Shown: one piece after another, positions 8,310 through 21,267 of the stretch | How the letters are laid out: the number at the start of each line of letters is the position of its first letter | Numbering within the stretch: position 1 is the first letter of the stretch | Origin: Dehalococcoidia bacterium | GTDB lineage: Bacteria; Chloroflexota; Dehalococcoidia; UBA6926 | Reading direction: 5' to 3' | NCBI GenBank assembly: GCA_963666115.2 | Contig: CAXXET010000008.1 | Location: 176,118 to 240,117, forward strand | Length of the DNA stretch: 64,000 nucleotides | The notes under the pieces: model-generated | What the model saw: the letters and a program-made list of their open reading frames with translations, nothing else | Database searches by the model: none | What the model was told of the DNA's origin: nothing | Translations under genes and position numbers: made by a program

Positions 8310-8681
8310 TCAGCCCCCGTTGCTGAGAACGCCCTCAACCCTGTCAACAAACTGGGCGACCTGTTCGAGACTATCCCGGATGTCCCGGCTAGTGAACTGA
8401 CCCTCGTAGAAGTTCTCATGCAACCCGCCCGCCTCGTTGAAGAGGGTGCGGTAACTGTTATCGTCCGTCTCCTCCACGAGCAGACTCACCACGCCATACA
8501 GGCGGGCATGGCTGTTGTGGTCAAACCCGCGCCGGTCGGCGTAAGCCTTGACCATCTGCGAGGCCGCCCCCCATCCCTTCTCGGACGCCTGACGGAGATC
8601 CTCCGCCTCAAGTTCCACCCAAGCCTGGCCAAGAAACCGCCGGCTCTGCTCCTGGTACCCATTGCTGTCGTGATTCGTCAT
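8310..8681 (-). CDS. PaREP1-like (HEPN superfamily) protein, copy 1
   Basis: QASEKGWGAA, SH, LHENFYE motifs; TATACT-N6-ATG. Confidence 0.75.
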   Translation of the reverse strand: MTNHDSNGYQEQSRRFLGQAWVELEAEDLRQASEKGWGAASQMVKAYADRRGFDHNSHARLYGVVSLLVEETDDNSYRTLFNEAGGLHENFYEGQFTSRDIRDSLEQVAQFVDRVEGVLSNGG

Positions 8682-8733
8682 GGAGACAGTATACGACATG
8701 GGCAGACGGGCAGATTCGCCTCTGAGCGCGGCT

Positions 8734-9111
8734 CTATCCGCTGCCGTTCCGCCCGTTCAGCAAGCCCTCCACCTTATCAACGAATTGCGCGACGCTTTCC
8801 AGGCCGCCCTGCACATCCCGACCGGAGAGCTGTCCCTCATAGAAGTTAGTGTGGAGGCCGCCGGCGTCATGGAAAAGGACGCGGAAGCTGTCATCGTCCG
8901 TCTCGGCGACCAGGCGGCTGACAGCGCCAAAGAGGAGGCCGTGACTATCGTGATTCAGACCCCGCAGAACCGCGTAGGCCTTGACCATCTGGGAAGCAGC
9001 CCCCCACCCCTTCTCGGAGGCCTGGTGGAGGTCTTCGGCTTCCAACTCCACCCAAGCCTGGTCAAGAAACCGCCGCCCCTGCCGCTGGTACCCATTGCTA
9101 AAGCTAGTCAT
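8734..9111 (-). CDS. PaREP1-like protein, copy 2
   Basis: QASEKGWGAA..LHTNFYE; TATACT-N6-ATG. Confidence 0.75.
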   Translation of the reverse strand: MTSFSNGYQRQGRRFLDQAWVELEAEDLHQASEKGWGAASQMVKAYAVLRGLNHDSHGLLFGAVSRLVAETDDDSFRVLFHDAGGLHTNFYEGQLSGRDVQGGLESVAQFVDKVEGLLNGRNGSG

Positions 9112-9170
9112 AGGCACAGTATACGGGATGCGGAACACGCGGACGGGCAGATTCGCTTGTGAGCGTTGTG

Positions 9171-9551
9171 TTATCCGCTGCCGTTCCGCCCATTCAGCAG
9201 CCCCTCAACCTTGTCAACAAACTGCGCGATCTGCCCCAGCGTTGCCCGCAGCACTTCTTTATCCATGCCGCCTTCGTAATAGTTCACGTGGAGGCCGCTG
9301 GCAGTGCTGAAGAGAGTGCCGATGGACGTGTCCCCCGTTTCGCGCGCGAGGGCGCTCGCAACGCTGAAGAGGAAGCCATGCGTATCATGTCGGAGCCCGC
9401 GTTCCTCCGCCGCAGCCTTCACGAGTTGGGCCGCCGCCCCCCATCCCTTCTCGGAGGCCTGGTGCAGATCATCCGCCTCCAGTTCCACCCAAGCCTGATC
9501 GAGGAATACGCGCCCCTGCTGAGCATAAGTCATCCCATAACCATTCATCAT
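9171..9551 (-). CDS. PaREP1-like protein, copy 3
   Basis: QASEKGWGAA..LHVNYYE; TACACT-N6-ATG. Confidence 0.75.
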   Translation of the reverse strand: MMNGYGMTYAQQGRVFLDQAWVELEADDLHQASEKGWGAAAQLVKAAAEERGLRHDTHGFLFSVASALARETGDTSIGTLFSTASGLHVNYYEGGMDKEVLRATLGQIAQFVDKVEGLLNGRNGSG

Positions 9552-9597
9552 CGAAACAGTGTACCTGAGTCTGCTCTACGTTCCCGGAGGCACGGCG

Positions 9598-9978
9598 TTA
9601 TCCGCTGCCGTTCCGACCGTTCAGCAGCCCCTCGATCCTCTCAACAAGCAGCTCGATGTCCTGCAGCGCGGCGCGGATGTCCTCCGCGCTGATCCCCCCT
9701 TCATAGTAGTTGACGTGGAGTCCGCTCGCGATCTGAAACCCGCGGCGAATGACGCCGTCGCCGTCGTCCTCGCCGATGATGCCGGTCGCGCGAAACAGCA
9801 GCCCATGAGTGTCATGCGGGATGCCGCGCTCATCCGCCGCAGCCTTCACCAGTAGCGCCGCCGCGCCCCACCCCTTCTCCGCCGCCTGCGACAGATCCCC
9901 CCGCGCAAGCTCATCAAAAGCCTGCGACAGGTAAACCCGCCCCTGCTCCGCATAGGTCACGCCGTAGCCATTCATCAT
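9598..9978 (-). CDS. PaREP1-like protein, copy 4
   Basis: QAAEKGWGAA..LHVNYYE; TATACT-N6-ATG. Confidence 0.75.
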   Translation of the reverse strand: MMNGYGVTYAEQGRVYLSQAFDELARGDLSQAAEKGWGAAALLVKAAADERGIPHDTHGLLFRATGIIGEDDGDGVIRRGFQIASGLHVNYYEGGISAEDIRAALQDIELLVERIEGLLNGRNGSG

Positions 9979-10082
9979 GCAAGCAGTATACAGGGGTGGA
10001 ATGGCTGTAAAGAAAACCCTTCAGCAGTTCAGGAGTGAAGGTGAAAGGGCTTGGCGTCAGTCTGCGGAAAGAGAGCGGACTA

Positions 10083-10872: not shown

Positions 10873-12387
<1,515 letters not shown>

Positions 12388-13606: not shown

Positions 13607-13696
13607 GCCCGCCTCGCCACTCCCTCCCAACACACAACCATTCTATAGCAGAGTGTCAGTTGCCCTCACCCGCCCCCCATGTATACTGTCCCCACC

Positions 13697-14080
13697 ATGA
13701 ACGGATACGGCAGAACATACGCAGAGCAGGGCCGCATCTACCTTGCGCAGGCTTATGAGGAGCTTGAGCGGGGCGACCTCCCGCAGACCGCGGAGAAAGG
13801 CTGGGGCGCAGCGTCTCAGCTCGTCAAAGCCGCCGCCGATGAGCGAGGCCTGCCCCATCACTCCCACGGCTTCCTCTTCCGCGCCGTCGGAGTCCTCGGT
13901 GAAGAGCAGGGCGGCGATGTTATCCGGCAAGGCTTCTTCTCCGCGCACGGCCTCCACGGCAACTACTACGAAGGCGGAAGCCCCGAAGCCGACATCCGAG
14001 CCGCCCTAAAAGACGTAGAATCCCTAGTTGAAACAATCGAGGGAATGCTGAACGGGCGCAATGGAGCGACAACTCCCTAG
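13697..14080 (+). CDS. PaREP1-like protein, copy 5
   Basis: QTAEKGWGAA..HHSH..LHGNYYE; TATACT at 13682. Confidence 0.75.
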   Translation: MNGYGRTYAEQGRIYLAQAYEELERGDLPQTAEKGWGAASQLVKAAADERGLPHHSHGFLFRAVGVLGEEQGGDVIRQGFFSAHGLHGNYYEGGSPEADIRAALKDVESLVETIEGMLNGRNGATTP

Positions 14081-14196: not shown

Positions 14197-14556
14197 ATGA
14201 AGCTCACCAAAATAGCAGCCTGGGCAGCCCACCTCTGGGCTTGGGCCGTCGGCCTCTGGATGACCTTCGGCCCCTTCTACAGCGATGGCGCGACGCTGGT
14301 CGAACAGAACGGCGCATACGTTCTCCTGATACTGCTCTTCCCCATTCTGATGTCCGGCATCGCGCTCCTGGCCATCCGCTTCATCGATGCCGGACGGGTA
14401 GCGCGCAAAGCGCTCCTGTGGACAATAGCCCTGGTTCTCGTGGCCCTCTGCATAGCGACCTATATCTCCCTCTGCATATTCTATCTCCCAATGGTGATCG
14501 TACTGCTGGTTGTGGCCATACGCGAGGGAGGGCTTACGGCTGTTCGGTGGCGATGA
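14197..14556 (+). CDS. small integral membrane protein
   Basis: About four hydrophobic segments. Confidence 0.6.
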   Translation: MKLTKIAAWAAHLWAWAVGLWMTFGPFYSDGATLVEQNGAYVLLILLFPILMSGIALLAIRFIDAGRVARKALLWTIALVLVALCIATYISLCIFYLPMVIVLLVVAIREGGLTAVRWR

Positions 14557-14625
14557 GCGCCATCTCCGCCTCCGGGTCCGACACCCCAAACCGCGCCCCC
14601 GCCCCCCATGTATACTGTCCCCACC

Positions 14626-15009
14626 ATGAACGGCTACGGCAGGACATACGCTGAACAGGGGCGCATCTACCTTGCCCAGGCTTACGAAGAGCTTGAGCGC
14701 GGAGACCTCCCGCAGGCCGCGGAGAAAGGCTGGGGCGCAGCGTCTCAGCTCGTCAAAGCCGCCGCCGATGAGCGTGGCCTGCCGCATCACTCCCACGGGC
14801 TGCTTTTCCGGACTGTGGGGGTTCTTACCGAGGAATCCGGAGATGATGCCATTCGCCGGGGGTTTGACTCCGCCAGTTCCCTTCACGTCAACTACTATGA
14901 GGGCGGCGCAGCGAAGGTGAATATCCGCGCAAGCTTGCAGGACGTCGAGTCCCTCGTCGAAACAATCGAAACCATGCTAAACGGCCACAACGGCGCAACA
15001 ACTCCCTAG
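14626..15009 (+). CDS. PaREP1-like protein, copy 6
   Basis: 5' half and promoter nearly identical to copy 5. Confidence 0.75.
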   Translation: MNGYGRTYAEQGRIYLAQAYEELERGDLPQAAEKGWGAASQLVKAAADERGLPHHSHGLLFRTVGVLTEESGDDAIRRGFDSASSLHVNYYEGGAAKVNIRASLQDVESLVETIETMLNGHNGATTP

Positions 15010-15203
15010 CGCCCCCCGCCGCCTACCCCAACCAACCCGTCAACCACGCGGCGCACAGCCGCGCGAGACTACACTGCGCCGCCGGTGGTGACCTTCCAGC
15101 GACCTGCGTCCGGTTCACACGGAGTCAGGCGGTTCCTCGTCAAGCTGGAAAACGGTGAGGATTCCTTCCATCATGGAAGGATATGGCAACTGGGAGGTTG
15201 AGC

Positions 15204-15662
15204 ATGGACAAGACATGGAAAGTCGCCGGCATTACCGTTGTGATGGCTTTAGTCACGCTGACAATGACGGCATGTCAGGGCCCTCAGGGGCCAGCAGGTC
15301 CGGTTGGGCCTCAAGGACTAATTGGCCCGGTGGGACCCCAAGGAGCAGTAGGGCCAGTTGGACCCCAAGGACCAATAGGGCCGCAGGGTCCGGAAGGACA
15401 GCCTGGCTCACAGGTGACCGCACCGAGCGAAGAGATGCAGGAGCCCTATAGTGCAGAGATGTATGACGACTGCCGAGACGCTTTCGGCAGCATGAGCGCC
15501 ACCACCTTGAGGCTCCTCTTGGCATCCGGAGCGGACGAAGATGACTACCAATTTCTACTTGAAATGTCAGATTCAGACGTTCGTGGTGTGATGAAGCTGG
15601 GGTGCCTGGCTATTGCCTCAGGTGGTCGTGCACCCTTCGGCTCTTTTTGGGATGAAACGTAG
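15204..15662 (+). CDS. collagen-like (Gly-X-Y) lipoprotein
   Basis: GGAGG SD, signal peptide with MTAC lipobox, about 14 G-X-Y triplets ([12 protein letters not shown]...). Confidence 0.7.
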
Positions 15663-15781
15663 CTCATTTGGGGTTTGGATGGTAGAACCCAAGAGCGTCT
15701 CGATAGGGTTGGTGCCCTCCGCTTGTCCCCCTCCAGGGGTTCACATAGAATGGCGTGGACAGTAATGAGGGAGACACAGCC

Positions 15782-16120
15782 ATGAGCCGCGTCGTTGTAC
15801 TGCTGGAACCGACTTTCCTGCGTGACCGCGAGAACGGCGAGTACGCGGCGCGATTCCGCAGCCTCGGCCTCACCGCCTACGGCGATACCCGCGACGAGGC
15901 CCTGACGGCGCTAAAGGACTTCTTCGCCTTCTTCGTCCGCAAGCGTCGTGAAAACGGCACCCTTGAATGGTTCCTGGATAAAGCAGGCGTCGAGTGGTAC
16001 CCGGAAGACAAATACCCACACGACCCAAGCGTAATCGAGTATCTCGGCGAGGACAGCGAAGCCGCATCACGCTGGATTCGCGTCGACCCCACATCCCCAT
16101 ACACCACCCTCGCCGCATAA
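15782..16120 (+). CDS. HicB-like protein
   Basis: YAARF.SLGL.AYGDTRDEAL..LKD resembles the HicB N-terminal domain. Confidence 0.6.
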   Translation: MSRVVVLLEPTFLRDRENGEYAARFRSLGLTAYGDTRDEALTALKDFFAFFVRKRRENGTLEWFLDKAGVEWYPEDKYPHDPSVIEYLGEDSEAASRWIRVDPTSPYTTLAA

Positions 16121-16124
16121 GTAG

Positions 16125-16409
16125 GTGAACATTCCGGGAGACGTTCCGGCGCATTACGTCATTGAGGCGTATGCCAGGCTCGGATTCGCATTGGAGCAGG
16201 GCGGATTCGCCCAACTCAGCTTTCGGAATGATGAGGGCATCCTCCTGTTCCACGCCATGCGGCGCGAAGGCATGATCAACGTGCCAATTGCGCTCGAAGA
16301 CATCGGGCTGGTTGAGACCATCAATGTCCTGCCACCCGGCTGGGGCCGTGAAACCTGGTTGGCCGCCCTGCTGGACGTGATGCAAGACCCCTACTACGCG
16401 CCACGATAG
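16125..16409 (+). CDS. hypothetical protein, possible partner of HicB-like gene
   Basis: GTG start 4 nt after the HicB-like stop. Confidence 0.45.
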   Translation: MNIPGDVPAHYVIEAYARLGFALEQGGFAQLSFRNDEGILLFHAMRREGMINVPIALEDIGLVETINVLPPGWGRETWLAALLDVMQDPYYAPR

Positions 16410-16431
16410 CGCACAGCCGTCCCCTCGCCTG

Positions 16432-17793
16432 TCAACGTGCCATATCTTGGACGTTCTCCTCCCCCTCCCCCTTCATCAACGCCATCTCTGCCTCCGGATC
16501 CGACACCCCGAACCGCGCCATCGCCGTCCGCCTCGAACGCAGCCCGTTCTTCACAAGCTCAATCTCCTGCCGCGCGACCTGCGCCTGGTCCTGCGGCAAA
16601 ATCGCCCCCCACTCGATCGACGTCCGGTACGGCGCCAGAGGCTCGCCCGTCATCTGCTCATGGATGCGAAGCGCGATCTCATTCCGCTTGCGGTACGCCG
16701 CCGCCCGGATAAGCCGCTTCCGCCGCAGCTTGTGCAGCAGCGGGTGGAGTTCCATCTCCAGTGCCACCCCGGACAGCCCCTGCCGGTTGTCCCCAAAGGC
16801 GATGCGCGGCGTCTCCGAGAGGTCGTGCAGCGCGCGGTAGATGGCGTTCACGTAGTCGATGTGCAGCTGCACCCCGCCCCCCTGCAGCAGGTCCAACAGG
16901 TACGCGCGCGCCCGGTCCGGCAGCTCCCACACCGCCCCGGGCTGTATGGCGATGTCCTGCGACTGATCGACGTTCTCCAGCACCGCGATGGGATTGCCGG
17001 AGAGTTCCAGGATCATGGAGAGCTGCGAGAGGGCGCGGTTCAGTTCCCGGATCGGCTCCATCATCGCGGGAATGTCGGACACCCCCCAGAACTGCTTGGG
17101 CGCGCGGATGTTGGGATACACCACGAACGGGATGAGCCCGTACGGGTTCGCCTCATCCCGCGCGAGCGTGTCCCCCGCGTACAACCGGAACCTCTTGTCG
17201 TCCCACACCTCCGTGATCGTGATGCGAGACTGCGCCCTGCCCCGCGCCGGCGGCCGGACGCCATGCAGCTCGCGCGCCTCCTCCGCGTCCAGCGTATAGC
17301 GCGAGGCCACGCGCCGGATGCGGTTCACGTCATCCCCCACCCACCAGCAGTGGAGTCCCTGCACGTCCGGCGCCGTGATGCGGATGCCGCCCCGCCCATC
17401 GTCCCACGTGATCTTGTACGCCCCGTCGCCCAGCACCGCGGTGTCGATCTCCGTGTCGAAATCGAGCTGGTCGAGCGAATTGACCTCCGCCATGTCCGCC
17501 AGCAGCCGCTCTGCCCCCCGCGCCCGCTCCTGCTCCTCCGGCGAGGCGTCCAGGGGCGGCACGGTGGAGCGCAGATCGGCCATCAGGTACGACGTGACCT
17601 TCTCGACGGACGCGCGCGCGTAGTTGAAGGTAAGCCGCCGCTCGCGCCCCCGCGTCCGCCCCGGCCAGTGCTCGCCCTCGTAGAACGCCAGGTTGCGCCG
17701 GTAGCGTTCCCGCCGCTCCGTGTCCCGCTTGTCCAGCGATGACGGAACGAAATCGTCGCGGCTCTCCGTCCGCCCGTTCAGCGATGTCGTCAT
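16432..17793 (-). CDS. phage portal protein (SPP1 gp6-like)
   Basis: FYEGEHW, FNYAR, AVLGDG, NPYGLIPFV..N, GVSDI, LSGVAL; ATG overlaps upstream stop (ATGA). Confidence 0.85.
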   Translation of the reverse strand: MTTSLNGRTESRDDFVPSSLDKRDTERRERYRRNLAFYEGEHWPGRTRGRERRLTFNYARASVEKVTSYLMADLRSTVPPLDASPEEQERARGAERLLADMAEVNSLDQLDFDTEIDTAVLGDGAYKITWDDGRGGIRITAPDVQGLHCWWVGDDVNRIRRVASRYTLDAEEARELHGVRPPARGRAQSRITITEVWDDKRFRLYAGDTLARDEANPYGLIPFVVYPNIRAPKQFWGVSDIPAMMEPIRELNRALSQLSMILELSGNPIAVLENVDQSQDIAIQPGAVWELPDRARAYLLDLLQGGGVQLHIDYVNAIYRALHDLSETPRIAFGDNRQGLSGVALEMELHPLLHKLRRKRLIRAAAYRKRNEIALRIHEQMTGEPLAPYRTSIEWGAILPQDQAQVARQEIELVKNGLRSRRTAMARFGVSDPEAEMALMKGEGEENVQDMAR

Positions 17794-18191
17794 GGCGCAG
17801 CCTCTCTCCTCTCGGCGTCTGCCTGCTCGTCGTCGCGCCGCGCGGATTCCAGCGCGCGAAAGACGGTGCGTCTCCCAACCTTGAATCTCTTGGCGATGGC
17901 GGGGACGGACAGCCCCTCCTCCAGTCGCGCCGCCGCGATGGCCTTGTCGCGTGACGCCAGCCGTTCGCGGCGCGTGACCGGCCCCTCGTCGTAGCGGCAG
18001 CGCGGATACGGGCAGTCCAGGGAGCTCGTGCACTCCTCGCCGCACCCCCGGTCCATGTACAGCGTGTCCTCCGGTAGCCTGTCCCCCCGTTTCCCGCTCC
18101 GACGCGCAAGCGGTATCTCCAGTTGATCCACGTTGTTCGGCCTGCGCGGGCGGGGCGGCCGGGCGCCCTGCCCGGACGATTCACGTGACAT
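17790..18191 (-). CDS. Cys-cluster plus HTH DNA-binding protein
   Basis: DRGC...C....DCPYPRCRYD then GLSVPAIAKRFKVGRRTVFRAL. Confidence 0.7.
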   Translation of the reverse strand: MSRESSGQGARPPRPRRPNNVDQLEIPLARRSGKRGDRLPEDTLYMDRGCGEECTSSLDCPYPRCRYDEGPVTRRERLASRDKAIAAARLEEGLSVPAIAKRFKVGRRTVFRALESARRDDEQADAERREAAP

Positions 18192-18240
18192 CCGATTGCC
18201 TCCTCCCGGCGCGAATTGGGCGAAAATCCTGGCGGAACGT

Positions 18241-19644
18241 CTAGCTGGTGGAACGGCTGCGTCCGACAGCCGTGCGAAGACCCCCTTCCTGCGCGCTCGC
18301 GTGCGCCGCCAGGGCCAGCGAAATCAGGTAATCGTCGCGGCCATCCCGCTCCGGCACGTAGAAGTTCATCGTGTGGTTCGCGTTGTGCTGCGCCTGCGCG
18401 TAGTGAATCTGGCGCCGCGCCGCCGCGGATTCCGATGACAGGTCGTCCGCGTACAGCCGCAGGCGCCCCGCGTTGACCATCGCAAGCAGCCCAAAGCCGA
18501 TCTTGGACTTCGAATGCTGCGTGAACGTGATGGGCTGCACGGCCTGTCCCACGCGGTGCTGGAGGGAGGCGACCATCGGCTCCCCGATGCCGGTCGCGTC
18601 CACGGCGACCCGCCGCACGCGCCACACGTTCTTCAGCAGGTCCGTCAACTGCTCCAGGAGCGCCCCGTGTGGAGTCCCGCGCCAGTAATAGTGCTGCACG
18701 ATGTGAACCTGCGGCTCGTCGAAGCCGTGGCCGGGGATGATCTCCGCGATCGTGAGAACCGTCTCGTCGCGCTGGACAACGCGGTCCGCGCCCCACTCCG
18801 TCTCGGTAATGGCCAGCGGCGCGCCGGCCAGATCGAGACCCGCCGCGTAGATCGCTCCGGGGCGCGGCGACTGCTGCCGGGGGTGGTCGCCGTGCAGTTG
18901 AACGACGTGCGCGCGGCTGAAGAGGCGGGTGTTCTCATCCACCGGCAGAAGCGCGTACTGCGTCCGGAACAGCGGATGCTCCTCGCCCAGCCGCTGCCGC
19001 TCCCCCTCCACGAAGGCCCCGTAGAGCCGGTTGTGCCGCGCAACCTCCTGCCAGTCGTAGCGGAAGTGCCGCCTCCGCCCCGCTCTGCCGTAGGCGCTCT
19101 GCGACGAGCCCACGCGCTCCGTGGCCTTCACCTGTTCCAGCAGGGAATCGCTGCGCCATGCCGTGCCGTACAGCACCGTCGTCGCGTTCTGCGCCGCGGC
19201 CATCGGGCGGAAATCGCGGTTGAACTTGTCCGGCAAAACGTCCTGCGCCTCGTCGATCTCCAGCAGGAGATCCGCCGTCTGCCCGACGACATTCGACGTC
19301 GGGTGCGCGCTGAGATACGTGGCGCGGCAGTGGCCGACCCGGAGAACGTGCCCCCTGTCCAGGCGGGATATGGTGCTCAGGCCGCTCTCCTCCAGCCGCT
19401 GCATGACCCGCTCGATGGAGATCAGCGCCTGCGGCTGAAAGGTGGGCGCCGCCTTGACCAGCGCGCCCCCCCGCGCCGCGTTCCGCAGCAGCAGCACCAT
19501 CTGGAGATACGCGGACAACTCGTTCTTCCCCGCCTGACGCGCCATCTCCACCGTGAACGTCAACCCCCGCCGGTTGAACACGGAGTCCAGCACGGCCCGC
19601 GCAACGTCCGCCTGGTACGGGCGCAGGCGGATGCCCGTCGTCAC
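18241..19644 (-). CDS. terminase large subunit
   Basis: LRPYQ, Walker A MARQAGKN, Walker B LLEIDEAQ, YGTA, nuclease GLDLAG / VDATGIG / RDDYLISLAL. Confidence 0.85.
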   Translation of the reverse strand: MTTGIRLRPYQADVARAVLDSVFNRRGLTFTVEMARQAGKNELSAYLQMVLLLRNAARGGALVKAAPTFQPQALISIERVMQRLEESGLSTISRLDRGHVLRVGHCRATYLSAHPTSNVVGQTADLLLEIDEAQDVLPDKFNRDFRPMAAAQNATTVLYGTAWRSDSLLEQVKATERVGSSQSAYGRAGRRRHFRYDWQEVARHNRLYGAFVEGERQRLGEEHPLFRTQYALLPVDENTRLFSRAHVVQLHGDHPRQQSPRPGAIYAAGLDLAGAPLAITETEWGADRVVQRDETVLTIAEIIPGHGFDEPQVHIVQHYYWRGTPHGALLEQLTDLLKNVWRVRRVAVDATGIGEPMVASLQHRVGQAVQPITFTQHSKSKIGFGLLAMVNAGRLRLYADDLSSESAAARRQIHYAQAQHNANHTMNFYVPERDGRDDYLISLALAAHASAQEGGLRTAVGRSRSTS

Positions 19645-19646
19645 GG

Positions 19647-19841
19647 CTACAACCCCGCCACGCGCATGATCGCCTGCAGCGCCACCGTCCCCACGATCAG
19701 CAGGAACAGGTTGTTGATCCGCCCCCGCAGGTCCTCCAGCTGCTGCTCGAGCGCCTGCATCTGTTGCCGCAGCAGCGCCTCGAATGCCGTGCTCGGCTCC
19801 GTGTCGAGCGCGGGTTTCTCATCGGTCCGATGATTCGCCAT
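19647..19841 (-). CDS. small coiled-coil protein with C-terminal TM helix
   Basis: AAGGAG SD; QQMQALEQQLEDLRGRIN then LFLLIVGTVAL. Confidence 0.6.
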   Translation of the reverse strand: MANHRTDEKPALDTEPSTAFEALLRQQMQALEQQLEDLRGRINNLFLLIVGTVALQAIMRVAGL

Positions 19842-19868
19842 TCCGTGTACTCTCCTTTAAGGTGTCGG

Positions 19869-20261
19869 CTAACTGGTGTTCTCTGGCGTCATAAAGTCGA
19901 AGTCCTCGTCCATGACCGGGAAGAGCTGCTCGCTAAGCCCCTCCATGGTGCCGGCGAGATTCTCCAGCAGTTCGTTCTCCGGCTTGGCCCCCAGCCGGTG
20001 CCGCGCCGCGAGTGTGTGAGACAGCGTGCTGATGGCTTTCATCAGGAGCGGAAGGTCGTCCGGCCTGTCCTCGAGGACGGTCAAAATCTTCGCCCGCAGA
20101 ACGGCAACCTCATCATCCAGGCCGTTCACGTTCTTGGCGCGCTTCGCGTACTCCTTCTCCCCGGCGGACATCGCGCGCTCATAGAAGTTGGCCTTTGCCC
20201 TCCGGCGCGGCGACACGGCCTGGGCGGGCGATTTCGCCGCGCTGTCGATTGTCTTGATCAT
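19869..20261 (-). CDS. terminase small subunit-like protein
   Basis: Upstream of TerL; basic N-terminus, NFY..., GLDDEVAVLRAKI helix pattern. Confidence 0.55.
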   Translation of the reverse strand: MIKTIDSAAKSPAQAVSPRRRAKANFYERAMSAGEKEYAKRAKNVNGLDDEVAVLRAKILTVLEDRPDDLPLLMKAISTLSHTLAARHRLGAKPENELLENLAGTMEGLSEQLFPVMDEDFDFMTPENTS

Positions 20262-20271
20262 CGGCGCTCCC

Positions 20272-20454
20272 CTACGCCCGCCCGCCGGACGGCGGCTCGC
20301 CCGGAACCTCGTCGAAAAACAGGGCAAGCACGTCCGGCGGCGTCTCGATGATCGCCTGCGCTAGACCCCAGATCAGCGCGAGCGCCGAAAGCTCGCTCAA
20401 CTCGGGCGACTCGGATTGCCGGATAGCCTTCAGAGTGGCCGACTGTGCCGTCAT
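20272..20454 (-). CDS. hypothetical 60-aa first gene of packaging operon
   Basis: GGAGG SD, downstream of predicted promoter, 10 nt from next start. Confidence 0.45.
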   Translation of the reverse strand: MTAQSATLKAIRQSESPELSELSALALIWGLAQAIIETPPDVLALFFDEVPGEPPSGGRA

Positions 20455-20514
20455 CCCATCCTCCCCCTGCCCCTGTGCGATTTCCCGCGTGGGCTCGTGT
20501 GTCGTTAGAACGGA

Positions 20515-20543
20515 AGAATAGAATATACGTTCTTATCCGTCAA
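20515..20543 (-). promoter_or_regulatory. sigma70 promoter with overlapping LexA-like box
   Basis: TTGACG-N17-TATTCT; AGAAC-GTAT-ATTCT at 20520..20533 (1 mismatch to AGAAC-N4-GTTCT). Confidence 0.65.
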
Positions 20544-20682
20544 TGCCTCGTGACACATCCGCGCGGCGCGGGACGGCCCTGCGCCGTCCGGTTGCCCCGA
20601 CTCGGATACACTGGTAGGAGGCGCGCATGGCGCGTCCGGACTTTCAGGACGGAAGCGAGGACAATCGACGGGTGAATTGCCG

Positions 20683-21267
20683 ATGAAAGCCGTGAGAACG
20701 GCGCTTGTGAGCATTGCGCTGGCCGCGTTGGCGCTGTCGGGAGCCTGCGCCGCTGTTGACGGCGTGTTCCGCCAGCCGCTGCCGTCCCCCGAAACGCTGA
20801 ACCTCCAGGCCTTCATGTTGGAGGGCGGCGGCGTCATGCCCGGCACGGATGTCGTCCGCGTCAACTGGAGCCCCCCGGACGACGATCTGGACATCGACTT
20901 CGTCGTCATCGAGTACTCGGAGAATGAAGACGGCCCGTGGGATGAGATCGCCGCGAAAGCCCCCGACGCCGGACACTACGAGCATGGCGCCATCTTTACC
21001 AGCGGCAGCTTCCACTATTACCGCGTATTCCTCGCGCGCGGTCAGGAAGAGACGCCCCCGACCGACCCGATAGCCGTCTGGATACCGGGGCAGGGAGCCC
21101 TTGACCGCGCCGGCCCCGGCCAGGTCCTCCCGGCCAATCGAACCCCGACGCCCGTCCCGGGATCGGACGCCCCCCCCACGCCCCTCCCCACCGTTTCCGG
21201 CGACAGCAACGCGCCGTTCATGGTCGTTCCTCCCACCCCAACGGCGCCGCCAACGCCCGTCGCCTGA
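20683..21267 (+). CDS. secreted or lipoprotein with FN3-like domain and Pro/Thr tail
   Basis: Signal peptide with SGAC; VRVNWSPP..YYRV; PTP repeats. Confidence 0.6.
   Translation: MKAVRTALVSIALAALALSGACAAVDGVFRQPLPSPETLNLQAFMLEGGGVMPGTDVVRVNWSPPDDDLDIDFVVIEYSENEDGPWDEIAAKAPDAGHYEHGAIFTSGSFHYYRVFLARGQEETPPTDPIAVWIPGQGALDRAGPGQVLPANRTPTPVPGSDAPPTPLPTVSGDSNAPFMVVPPTPTAPPTPVA

What the first reader, a model, noticed from the sequence alone, without database searches (positions are those of the whole stretch)
16432..20543. Stand-alone terminase-portal operon with a LexA-like box: candidate domesticated, SOS-inducible DNA-packaging (GTA-like) system
Seen: six co-oriented genes (60-aa ORF, TerS-like, coiled-coil/TM protein, TerL with intact Walker A/B and nuclease motifs, Cys-HTH, portal), host-like GC, located between rex/atp and 16S. 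No integrase, capsid, tail, lysis or replication gene is in the window. The promoter is TTGACG-N17-TATTCT, with AGAAC-GTAT-ATTCT overlapping the spacer and -10. Known: GAAC-N4-GTTC is the Gram-positive-type LexA box, also reported for Dehalococcoides. Inference: a host-controlled packaging motor, with head genes elsewhere or with a non-virion role. A relic of the portal 3' end at 14552 differs almost only synonymously, consistent with purifying selection.
Basis: partly seen in the sequence, partly recalled or inferred. Interest (0 to 1): 0.85.

Follow-up and report, generated by a model that had tools for sequence, protein, structure and literature searches.

The report
Domesticated phage head-packaging system, Dehalococcoidia
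The terminase-portal operon is one of three scattered but co-regulated pieces of an old, host-kept phage remnant that probably still builds small DNA-filled particles, much like a gene transfer agent, in a bacterial class where none has been described.

Summary
On the minus strand at 16432-20543 lie orf60, a 130-aa helical "TerS-like" protein, a 64-aa coiled-coil/TM protein, TerL, a Cys-rich HTH protein and an SPP1-type portal, behind TTGACG-N17-TATTCT.

The organism is a Dehalococcoidia MAG. The operon sits next to rex in every same-genus genome examined, and TerL was found once in each of 21 of 21.

The missing head genes exist elsewhere in the genome. HK97-type capsid, SU10-type adaptor, a gp27/VgrG-like tail hub and a 67-aa protein lie about 46 kb away. 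A scaffold gene lies on another contig. All are conserved in 21 of 21 genus genomes. In distant Dehalococcoidia the same genes form one compact cluster of about 8 kb.

Median dN/dS is 0.08-0.21, against 0.04-0.06 for rpoB and rex. No integrase is linked.

The operon and capsid promoters share an architecture found nowhere else in this genome, and it recurs across the class. Its operator resembles the LexA box but is not canonical, and LexA binding is unproven.

Best reading: a domesticated, GTA-like particle system. Particles, packaged DNA and SOS control remain untested.

The parts
20550..20558 (-). Conserved upstream promoter element ATGTGTCAC (about -50)
   Evidence: The same TGTG(N)CA(C) block precedes the -35 in the genus operon, capsid and scaffold promoters. 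A GACA block sits there class-wide. It also occurs at a few other promoter-like sites in the genome, so it is not specific to the system.
20515..20543 (-). Promoter TTGACG-N17-TATTCT
   Evidence: Read. It is the only sigma-70-like site in 16000-20800. It is conserved in 16 of 17 genus loci. It scores 56.7 bits with a genus matrix trained without G000.
20520..20533 (-). Operator-like box AGAAC-GTAT-ATTCT, overlapping the spacer and the -10
   Evidence: It matches the Gram-positive-type LexA box at 11 of 12 positions. This exact pattern occurs once in the 2.07-Mb genome. The GAAC half is invariant in the genus and in 32 of 51 distant loci.
20272..20454 (-). orf60, 60 aa, unknown function
   Evidence: ORF. 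Conserved at 48-71% identity in the genus at the same place. No Pfam or PHROG match.
19869..20261 (-). 130-aa basic/helical protein directly upstream of TerL ('TerS-like' by position only)
   Evidence: Conserved next to TerL across the class. The AF2 model has five helices at pLDDT 69. No Pfam, PHROG, PDB-sequence or Foldseek match.
19647..19841 (-). 64-aa coiled-coil protein with a C-terminal hydrophobic helix
   Evidence: ORF. At 71-88% identity in the genus, and longer (109 aa) in other genus members. Not found between terS and terL in G039.
18241..19644 (-). Large terminase (TerL), 467 aa
   Evidence: phrog_5909 1.7e-8. Terminase_6C 21 bits, just under the cut-off. The profile hits solved TerL nuclease domains at E about 0.01. 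Walker A/B and acidic nuclease residues are invariant. One match in each of 21 of 21 genus genomes. dN/dS 0.10.
17790..18191 (-). Cys-rich HTH_23 DNA-binding protein, 133 aa; candidate regulator
   Evidence: HTH_23 29.7 bits. It precedes the portal wherever both were found in the 21 distant loci printed (L044, L073, L082, L101) and heads the structural module when the system is split (L073, L082). dN/dS 0.21.
16432..17793 (-). Portal protein, 453 aa
   Evidence: SPP1_portal 1.4e-13; phrog_64 1.9e-26. At 83-91% identity in the genus and 46-63% across the class. dN/dS 0.087.
14553..14603 (-). 51-nt relic of the portal 3' end beside a PaREP1-family gene
   Evidence: 86% identity to 16475-16525. 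It encodes the same 14 residues. Similar short portal-end relics occur in G004, G007 and G009.

Best explanation
The operon is the packaging and portal module of a phage-derived particle system that the host lineage has kept and that no longer behaves as a virus.

**Layout in this genome.** There are three loci.
1. terS-like, TerL, HTH and portal, in the window.
2. Capsid, adaptor, tail hub and a 67-aa protein at G000:C8:145613-149324.
3. A scaffold gene at G000:C7, about 135.5-136.0 kb.

**Proposed mechanism.**
- *Shown:* the three loci carry related promoters. The first two also carry an operator-like site, GAAC-N4-(G/A)T(T/G)C, across the spacer and the -10.
- *Inferred:* a repressor bound there, either LexA or a dedicated HTH protein, keeps the genes silent. 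On release, scaffold and capsid build a procapsid on the portal. TerL, helped by the small basic protein, pumps in DNA and cuts it with its nuclease domain. Adaptor and hub then close the portal as a very short tail.
- *Inferred:* because the genes are scattered and there are no replication or integration genes, the DNA packaged would be largely host DNA. The particles would therefore act like a gene transfer agent.
For: **Fixed position and copy number.**
- TerL was found once in each of 21 of 21 same-genus genomes.
- The order rex, lipoprotein, then divergently orf60-terS-terL-hth-portal is seen in all genus loci fetched: 9 of 9 and 16 of 16. In one search the portal is missing only where the contig ends, and the 64-aa protein was not detected in L039.

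**The other head genes.**
- Capsid 21 of 21. Portal 20 of 21. Scaffold 21 of 21.
- The scaffold follows the same host phosphoesterase gene in 18 of 21.

**The same genes form one compact cluster elsewhere.** This is seen in distant genomes and in IMG/VR contigs. Of 71 contigs, 54 have the capsid, 53 the portal, 43 the adaptor and 33 the hub.

**Family and fold assignments.**
- Capsid: PF05065 38.6 bits; phrog_212 1.8e-70.
- Adaptor: PF24175 42.9 bits.
- Hub: model pLDDT 87; best Foldseek matches are baseplate and spike hub proteins of contractile injection systems, Mu gp44 and VgrG, with TM 0.73 to Mu gp44 (1wru).

**Selection.**
- Median dN/dS: TerL 0.10, portal 0.087, capsid 0.078, adaptor 0.088, hub 0.15.
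- Comparators: rex 0.062, rpoB 0.038.
- dS is similar across all genes, 0.49-0.73.

**Regulation.**
- A genus promoter matrix trained without G000 hits only two places in the 2.07-Mb genome: the operon (56.7 bits) and the capsid (30.4 bits).
- The class-wide motif is present upstream of terS in 32 of 51 loci, against 2 of 51 on the opposite strand.
- Where the system is split, each module examined has its own copy (L073, L082).

**No mobility genes.** The only two tyrosine-recombinase matches lie on other contigs.

**Class distribution.** The portal is found in 81 of 121 genomes, mostly as a single match, and families are mostly all-or-none.
Against: **Nothing experimental.** No particle, packaged DNA or transfer has been seen. 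No RNA data exist for this stretch.

**Phylogeny and distribution.**
- AU tests reject identical topologies for rpoB, TerL+portal and capsid+adaptor+hub. One or two strongly supported splits conflict with rpoB. Only one unlinked marker was used.
- The three nearest sister-genus genomes of the same family lack portal, capsid and scaffold, and two of them lack TerL. G022 has only a weak partial TerL match (E 2.8e-6). One of two other families in the order also lacks the system. So loss or gain by transfer into the genus ancestor cannot be told apart.
- Outside the genus, identity does not track rpoB (n = 6).

**Damaged or degraded copies.**
- The G019 portal has a TAA at about codon 31.
- The G004 capsid is in two pieces.
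- In G000 the left half of the capsid operator is degraded.

**Missing or unidentified parts.**
- TerS identity is unsupported.
- No tail fibre or lysis enzyme was identified.

**Motif gaps.**
- The motif scan found nothing in 4 of 4 compact IMG/VR loci examined.
- The scaffold promoter lacks the box.
Confidence: 0.6

Rival explanations
1. The particles are made, but their role is not gene transfer. They might release DNA or lyse cells for biofilm or for the host-symbiont relation. They might act as a killing particle, or as a decoy or defence against related phages. The machinery is as described; only the benefit differs.
For: - Purifying selection and fixed loci show use by the host but not which use.
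- Many genus members carry an extra 83-aa two-TM protein as the first gene of the operon, and a C-terminally anchored coiled-coil protein. That would fit controlled membrane damage.
- The genus includes sponge- and coral-derived MAGs, by record titles.
Against: - An intact TerL ATPase and nuclease, and an intact portal, are kept under strong constraint. That is costly unless DNA is packaged.
- No toxin or effector gene sits in the conserved set.
Confidence: 0.22
2. It is still a mobile virus-like element: an inducible prophage or a helper-dependent satellite of the capsid-forming PICI kind. It would be common in Dehalococcoidia and would merely look fixed.
For: - Virus-finding pipelines list 71 related contigs in IMG/VR.
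- G027 has three TerL matches.
- AU tests reject strict congruence with rpoB.
- Sister genera lack it.
Against: - No integrase lies on the contigs holding the loci.
- No replication gene is in the conserved set.
- The genes are split over three loci with conserved host neighbours in 18-21 of 21 genus genomes.
- There is one match per genome.
- dS equals that of neighbouring host genes.
- The longer IMG/VR loci printed are mostly the same 8-gene cluster, not larger phage genomes.
Confidence: 0.08
3. The operator is not a LexA site. A dedicated regulator binds it, most simply the Cys-rich HTH protein encoded in the system. Expression would then answer to a signal other than DNA damage.
For: - The class consensus TAGAAC-N4-GTGC-TA departs from GAAC-N4-GTTC in the same way in most of the 32 loci.
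- The genus sites are GAAC-N4-ATTC and G(T/C)AC-N4-GTTC.
- Flanks ATAAG/CTTAT differ from those of the lexA, recA and comM boxes.
- The HTH gene heads the structural module.
- The GTGC may simply be an extended -10 (TGn).
Against: - lexA operators of distant genomes share the left half, the spacer and GT with the system's operators. TAGAACATTAGTTTG is a lexA operator of G145 and TAGAACATTGGTTTG that of G147, while the G147 system operator is TAGAACATTAGTGCT.
- Perfect AGAAC-ATAT-GTTCT versions occur in 4 of 51 loci.
- The recA promoter of this genome has a GAAC-N4-GTAC box.
- Only 8 of 51 distant loci gave an HTH match, but most of those loci hold only terS-terL, so this does not bear on whether the HTH gene accompanies the portal.
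Confidence: 0.5
4. It is a decaying cryptic prophage remnant with no present function.
For: - The G019 portal nonsense codon and the split G004 capsid.
- Broken copies in several class members, with stops or splits in G029, G030, G065, G087, G088 and G129.
- The degraded operator half in G000.
Against: - dN/dS is 0.08-0.21 over dS of 0.5-1.4 in all nine genes.
- Catalytic residues are invariant.
- Open frames are intact in 19 of 21 other genus genomes for both portal and capsid.
Confidence: 0.03

Closest known systems
RcGTA-type gene transfer agents of Alphaproteobacteria (recalled, not from a call)
   Same: - Phage-derived head and packaging genes without replication or integration functions.
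- Vertical inheritance over a large clade, with purifying selection.
- Genes spread over several loci under common regulation.
   Different: - No sequence kinship was tested or claimed.
- This set is much smaller, about 8 genes and 8 kb when compact.
- It has no tail tube, tape measure or fibre genes.
- It has an SU10-type adaptor plus a gp27-like hub.
- It uses an SOS-box-like operator rather than CtrA/GafA control.
- Particle formation is unproven.
PBSX of Bacillus subtilis and VSH-1 of Brachyspira (recalled)
   Same: Defective phage-like elements that package host DNA and are induced by DNA damage. That matches the regulatory reading of the box.
   Different: - Those are single contiguous prophage-like regions with full tails and lysis genes.
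- Their taxonomic spread is narrow.
- Here the genes are dispersed, tail-poor and class-wide.
Capsid-forming phage-inducible chromosomal islands, cf-PICI (recalled)
   Same: Small elements encoding their own terminase, portal, capsid and connector, but lacking a full tail.
   Different: - cf-PICIs carry integrase, regulation and replication modules and move between sites.
- Here no integrase is linked and the loci are fixed and split.
Podophage SU10 (Kuravirus) head-tail interface, through Pfam PF24175 and PF17236
   Same: - The adaptor matches SU10_adaptor (42.9 bits).
- The capsid also matches SU10_MCP (25.6 bits).
- The gene order is portal, scaffold, capsid, adaptor, tail tip.
   Different: - The large tail-tip protein's best fold matches are gp27/Mu gp44/VgrG-type hubs, not a podophage nozzle, among the top 49 Foldseek rows.
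- The closest cultured-phage capsids are siphophage heads at about 41% identity.
- The closest TerL is 33%.
Gram-positive-type LexA (Cheo) box, also reported for Dehalococcoides (recalled: Fernandez de Henestrosa et al. 2002, not seen here)
   Same: - GAAC-N4-GTTC geometry with an A/T-rich spacer, overlapping the core promoter.
- Canonical copies sit at lexA and recA of this genome.
   Different: The system's sites deviate at one core position in nearly all lineages: ATTC, GTGC or GTAC in one half.

Membership tests
Gene transfer agent (functional class) | Phage-derived structural and packaging genes without replication, integration or lysogeny modules | tested here: met
   The conserved set is terS-like, TerL, HTH, portal, scaffold, capsid, adaptor, hub and p70. 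PF00589 matches lie only on contigs C4 and C6.
Gene transfer agent (functional class) | Vertical inheritance at fixed chromosomal sites | tested here: inconclusive
   Met within the genus by synteny. However, AU tests reject strict congruence with rpoB, sister genera lack the system, and the class level is unresolved.
Gene transfer agent (functional class) | Purifying selection on the genes | tested here: met
   Median dN/dS 0.078-0.21 for nine genes over 205-231 usable pairs each.
Gene transfer agent (functional class) | Particles that package random host DNA, less than the element's own length, and deliver it to cells | not testable with these tools
   No RNA run is listed. No virome or culture data are at hand.
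LexA (SOS) regulon | Operator matching GAAC-N4-GTTC | tested here: not met
   The operon has GAAC-GTAT-ATTC, 11 of 12. One-mismatch sites are at chance level in the window, 19 against 22 +/- 4.4. The class consensus is GAAC-N4-GTGC.
LexA (SOS) regulon | Site conserved in orthologous promoters and related to the genome's own lexA and recA operators | tested here: inconclusive
   Conserved in 16 of 17 genus operons. lexA has CGAACAGGGGTTCG. recA has CGAACGCTTGTTCA plus CGAACGCATGTACA. Distant lexA operators share 11-12 leading bases with system operators.
LexA (SOS) regulon | LexA binding and damage induction | not testable with these tools
   Needs EMSA and induction experiments.
Large terminase (TerL) | N-terminal Walker A/B ATPase and C-terminal RNaseH-like nuclease | tested here: met
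   Invariant Q37 G39 K40, E129 D131 E132, D271, D349 and D437 D438. phrog_5909 1.7e-8. The profile hits solved TerL nuclease domains at E 0.009-0.011. Pfam Terminase_6C is just under its cut-off, 21.0 against 22.6.
SPP1-type portal (PF05133) | Score above the Pfam gathering cut-off | tested here: met
   51.1 bits against 25.5; phrog_64 1.9e-26.
Small terminase (TerS) | Match to a TerS family or fold (DNA-binding domain plus oligomerisation core) | tested here: not met
   No Pfam or PHROG match. The PDB profile search gave nothing below E 0.15. The model has pLDDT 69 and no Foldseek match at E <= 0.001. Only position and conservation next to TerL support the label.
HK97-fold major capsid protein (PF05065) | Score above cut-off in the same genome | tested here: met
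   G000:C8:145613-146518, 38.6 bits against 24.2; phrog_212 1.8e-70.
Integrated prophage or PICI | Linked integrase or recombinase, and replication or repressor module | tested here: not met
   No PF00589 match on C8 or C7. The flanks are rex, a lipoprotein, PaREP1 genes, R-M genes and a phosphoesterase.

The most novel reading that the evidence does not exclude
This is an independent, ancient gene transfer agent lineage, possibly ancestral to much of the class Dehalococcoidia. It is built from a minimal set of about eight genes: small basic protein, TerL, portal, scaffold, capsid, adaptor, gp27-like hub and a 67-aa tip protein. It has no tail tube. Every transcription unit carries the same promoter with an SOS-box-derived operator, so DNA damage would switch on DNA export in slow-growing, often host-associated or subsurface bacteria. 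It would be the first GTA in Chloroflexota and the smallest known.
Probability: 0.35. Interest if true: 0.88.

Novelty: new variant of a known kind. Interest (0 to 1): 0.78.

Why it matters
Only a handful of independently domesticated gene transfer agents are known, and they shape how we think about gene exchange and about why cells keep viral machinery.

A class-wide system of about eight genes in Dehalococcoidia would bear on three things:
- It would add a new lineage in a phylum with almost no genetics. The class includes organohalide respirers, SAR202-like ocean bacteria and sponge symbionts.
- It would explain many short 'viral' contigs that virus-finding pipelines assign to these hosts.
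- It would offer a possible natural DNA-delivery vehicle for organisms that cannot yet be transformed.

The shared promoter and operator gives a directly testable regulatory handle.

Tried and rejected
- **RNA evidence.** The look-up of sequencing runs listed no RNA holder, only two DNA-type holders with 0.38 and 0.29 of the words.
- **TerS identification.** Pfam, PHROGs, a PDB profile search, an AF2 model and Foldseek all gave nothing.
- **TerL against PDB.** The single-sequence search gave no match at E <= 0.01. Only the profile gave weak nuclease-domain matches.
- **Class-trained promoter matrix on G000.** It did not recover the genus promoters, because the genus variant differs. Its one hit was at C6:563179 at 19.2 bits, upstream of no clear gene.
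- **Box upstream of the scaffold gene.** None was found within 500 nt. The scaffold promoter shares only the upstream element and the -35.
- **Compact IMG/VR loci.** The motif scan of four such loci (L157, L172, L205, L216) gave no hit with the filter used.
- **Rex operator reading of the box.** Considered and dropped. The Rex consensus I recall has the geometry GAA-N4-TTC, whereas the box reads GAA-N6-TTC. This rests on recall only.
- **Encapsulin reading of the 301-aa capsid.** Dropped. SrpI-like scored 18 bits, below its cut-off. The gene travels with portal, scaffold and adaptor.
- **Longer IMG/VR contigs at 35-36% TerL identity** (L212, L213, L217, L222). These lack the other genes and look like unrelated phages. 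They were not followed.
- **Literature.** Six searches were run:
  - 'gene transfer agent' with Dehalococcoidia, with Chloroflexi and with Chloroflexota.
  - Dehalococcoidia + terminase + portal + capsid.
  - Dehalococcoides + terminase + portal.
  - SAR202 + prophage + terminase.

  I saw only the listings and the starts of abstracts, and none described this system. No paper was opened. Supplements are closed, so prophage tables in genome papers could mention these genes without my seeing it.

Full report
**What is in the window**

Six co-oriented ORFs lie on the minus strand between 20454 and 16432.
- **Portal (16432-17793).** It scores 51.1 bits on SPP1_portal (cut-off 25.5) and 1.9e-26 on phrog_64.
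- **TerL (18241-19644).**
  - It matches PHROG terminase families (1.7e-8).
  - It falls just under the Pfam Terminase_6C cut-off (21.0 against 22.6).
  - A profile of 20 relatives hits solved TerL nuclease domains at E about 0.01.
  - The Walker A, Walker B and acidic nuclease residues are invariant down to 36% identity.
- **133-aa protein.** It has an HTH_23 domain behind four cysteines.
- **Protein upstream of TerL.**
  - It is most likely 130 aa, from the ATG at 20261.
  - It is basic at its N-terminus and helical.
  - It matches no family, no solved sequence and no fold.
  - Calling it TerS rests on position alone.

The promoter TTGACG-17-TATTCT (20543..20515) is the only sigma-70-like site the scanner reports in 16000-20800. 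One such site is what shuffles give. The box AGAAC-GTAT-ATTCT (20533..20520) is one mismatch from GAAC-N4-GTTC, and such sites are at chance level in the window: 19 against 22 +/- 4.4. So the sequence features are real, but their meaning has to come from comparison.

**Whose genome**

Record titles of relatives name Dehalococcoidia MAGs. Several genus members are sponge- or coral-derived. The window's genome has 2.07 Mb in 9 contigs and is 100% complete by markers.

**Fixed in the genus**
- TerL is found once in each of 21 of 21 same-genus genomes, at 69-81% identity.
- The arrangement is rex, lipoprotein, then divergently orf60, terS-like, coiled-coil protein, TerL, HTH and portal.
- It is seen in 9 of 9 genus loci fetched by handle and in 16 of 16 fetched by accession, which partly overlap the first set.
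  - In L041 the portal is missing because the contig ends.
  - In L039 the 64-aa protein was not detected.
- The portal is 83-91% identical across the genus, as conserved as Rex at 77-92%.

**The head genes are elsewhere**

*Capsid locus.* A Pfam capsid search of the window's own genome gave one match, at C8:145613-146518. That is 46 kb from TerL and outside the window. The locus reads as follows.
- Capsid: phrog_212 1.8e-70.
- A 201-aa SU10-type adaptor: PF24175, 42.9 bits.
- A 661-aa protein, and then a 67-aa protein.

*The 661-aa protein.* It folds with pLDDT 87. Its best Foldseek matches are the gp27 / Mu gp44 / VgrG / contractile-injection hub fold, with TM 0.73 to Mu gp44 (1wru). Seven-bladed propeller lectins match weakly. 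From the secondary structure I place the propeller in the N-terminal half and the hub in the C-terminal half. That placement is inference.

*Scaffold locus.* A coiled-coil scaffold homologue lies on another contig, C7 at about 135.5-136.0 kb.

*Conservation in the genus.*
- Capsid, adaptor and hub are present in 21 of 21 genus genomes. The capsid is 82-91% identical and lies 45-116 kb from TerL.
- The scaffold is present in 21 of 21. In 18 of 21 it follows the same host phosphoesterase gene.

*Exceptions.*
- The G004 capsid is in two pieces.
- The G019 portal has a TAA at about codon 31.
- The portal was not found in the fragmented G001.

**Ancestral layout**

In distant Dehalococcoidia the same genes are together.
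- G039 reads terS, TerL, an inserted surface-protein gene on the other strand, then HTH, portal, scaffold, capsid, three small genes (one with a LamG domain), adaptor, a small TM protein, hub and p70.
- Seventy-one IMG/VR contigs carry TerL relatives at 49% identity or less. Most of them are 5-18 kb.
  - Of the 71, 54 have the capsid and 53 the portal.
  - The adaptor is in 43 and the hub in 33.
  - The scaffold and terS are each in 29.
- In L157 all eight genes fit in about 7.7 kb.
- In many genomes terS-TerL stands alone and HTH-portal-scaffold-capsid lies elsewhere.
- No tail tube, tape measure, integrase or replication gene belongs to the conserved set.
- The only two tyrosine-recombinase matches in this genome are on other contigs.
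- The nearest cultured-phage relatives are remote: TerL 33%, capsid about 41%.

**Selection and descent**

*Selection.* I used Nei-Gojobori estimates over 205-231 usable pairs per gene. The median dN/dS values are below.

| Gene | Median dN/dS |
|---|---|
| TerL | 0.10 |
| Portal | 0.087 |
| Capsid | 0.078 |
| Adaptor | 0.088 |
| Hub | 0.15 |
| terS-like | 0.17 |
| HTH | 0.21 |
| rex | 0.062 |
| rpoB | 0.038 |
| Neighbouring lipoprotein | 0.23 |

Median dS is alike for all genes, at 0.49-0.73.

*Trees.* I built nucleotide trees of rpoB, TerL+portal and capsid+adaptor+hub for 20 genomes. G001 and G004 were left out for missing genes.
- The trees share the main clades.
- There is no strongly supported conflict between the two phage-like data sets.
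- One or two splits with support of 95 or more conflict with rpoB.
- AU tests reject each data set's fit to the other two topologies.
- I did not run the same test between housekeeping genes, so I cannot say whether this exceeds ordinary recombination.

*G000 itself.* Its phage-like genes are more diverged from the crown group than its rpoB is. The same holds for rex and the lipoprotein. That points to rpoB being the odd gene rather than to transfer of the loci.

*Class level.*
- The portal is found at E <= 1e-20 in 81 of 121 genomes (111 of them at least 90% complete and at most 5% contaminated), mostly as one match per genome.
- Most families are all-or-none. For example 7/7, 6/6 and 6/6, against 0/6, 0/5, 0/4 and 0/6.
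- There are some mixed families and some broken copies.

*Limits.*
- The three sister-genus genomes of the same family lack portal, capsid and scaffold. Two of them lack TerL as well, and G022 has only a weak partial TerL match (E 2.8e-6). One of two other families in the order also lacks the system.
- Outside the genus, identities do not track rpoB (n = 6).
- So descent within the genus is well supported. At class level, ancient inheritance with losses and occasional transfer cannot be separated.

**Regulation**

*Operon promoter.* It is conserved in 16 of 17 genus loci. The miss is G009. The consensus is GTGTGTCATGG-N3-ATTGACG-N5-GAAC-N4-ATTC-TATTCT.

*Capsid promoter.*
- In the genus it has the same plan: TGTG(C/A)CAC-N5-6, then TTGCNN, then AG(T/C)AC-N4-GTTCTTAT.
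- A loose pattern recovers it in 18 of 20 non-G000 genomes.
- In G000 restriction-modification genes were inserted upstream. The left half of the operator is degraded to GGGAC.

*Specificity.* A matrix trained on the genus without G000 finds only two sites above 12 bits in the whole genome: the operon (56.7 bits) and the capsid (30.4 bits).

*Scaffold promoter.* It shares the upstream element and the -35 but not the box.

*Across the class.*
- 32 of 51 distant loci carry GACA..TTGCNN-N3-TAGAAC-N4-GT(G/T/A)C-TATNAT upstream of terS on the coding strand.
- On the opposite strand the count is 2 of 51.
- Where the system is split, each module examined has its own copy: L073, L082, the G039 HTH-portal unit, and the G035 terS and scaffold units.
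- Four compact IMG/VR loci gave no hit with that filter.

**Is it LexA?**

*For.*
- This genome has lexA with CGAACAGGGGTTCG.
- recA has CGAACGCTTGTTCA next to CGAACGCATGTACA.
- Perfect AGAAC-ATAT-GTTCT versions occur in 4 of 51 distant loci, against 1 of 51 in a coding control.
- lexA operators of distant genomes share the left half, spacer and GT with system operators.
  - The lexA operators are TAGAACATTAGTTTG in G145 and TAGAACATTGGTTTG in G147.
  - The G147 system operator is TAGAACATTAGTGCT.

*Against.*
- Nearly all lineages deviate at one core position.
- GTGC directly before TATNAT may be nothing more than an extended -10.
- The flanks differ from genuine SOS boxes.
- A DNA-binding protein is encoded at the head of the structural module.

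I put LexA, or a LexA-like protein, at roughly even odds with a dedicated regulator.

**Conclusion**

The operon is the packaging and portal module of a dispersed, co-regulated, selectively maintained phage-derived particle system that is widespread in Dehalococcoidia. It works like a gene transfer agent as far as genomes can tell. Whether it is one depends on particles, packaged DNA and transfer, none of which could be tested here.

Six literature searches, seen as listings only, found no description of it. The names RcGTA, PBSX, VSH-1, cf-PICI, the SU10 biology and the 2002 Dehalococcoides LexA paper are recalled, not taken from a call.

Noticed in passing
window 13679-14080, 14608-15009; also about 8319-9993 (= G000:C8:184436-186110) and contigs C2, C4, C6: A PaREP1/PaREP8-family gene (PF05942, 7e-16) is present in at least 13 copies in this 2-Mb genome. 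Two copies sit in a 929-nt tandem unit just downstream of the portal, and four more lie in a row beyond the 16S gene. Each unit near the portal begins with a short relic of the portal 3' end. Similar relics occur in G004, G007 and G009, which suggests repeated recombination at the portal's end.
   Followed up: partly
L027:8769-9020 (genus member G008); absent from the window: In about 10 of 17 genus loci, the first gene after the promoter is an 83-aa protein with two predicted TM helices and a basic tail. This is holin-like by eye, with no Pfam match. G000 and six others lack it.
   Followed up: partly
G000:C8:142323-145350 and 150188-158143 (outside the window, around the capsid locus): Restriction-modification genes surround the capsid module in G000: a Dcm-type methylase, Vsr, an endonuclease-like ORF and several N6/N4 methylases. 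Their insertion has replaced the sequence upstream of the capsid promoter that other genus members share.
   Followed up: partly
G000 C4:429986 and 430412, C7:131363 and 219370, C6:563205: Five further sites read CCATGTG(A/C)CAC-N5-6-TTG(A/C)CN, the same upstream element and -35 as the three system promoters. Two pairs are near-identical repeats. No clear ORF follows them, so they may drive small RNAs or belong to a repeat family.
   Followed up: partly
G000:C6:545567: A canonical LexA box (CGAACGCGCGTTCG) sits inside a TTGACA-N17-TAGAGT promoter upstream of genes that look like speH/speE. In G035, homologues of these two genes are inserted between the portal and capsid of the phage-like cluster.
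   Followed up: no
window 15183-15662: A small lipoprotein-like ORF with a collagen triple-helix repeat (PF01391, 8.6e-8) lies between the PaREP1 units and the portal. It was found only once in the genome.
   Followed up: no
window 10876-12386: The 16S rRNA gene stands alone, with no 23S or 5S match in the 64-kb window.
   Followed up: no
window 15755-16409 and G000:C7:223879-224505: A two-gene pair (121 aa and 94 aa) converges on the portal's end and has a paralogous pair on contig C7. It looks like a toxin-antitoxin-type pair by size and arrangement. The only family hit is a weak DUF7387 match.
   Followed up: no
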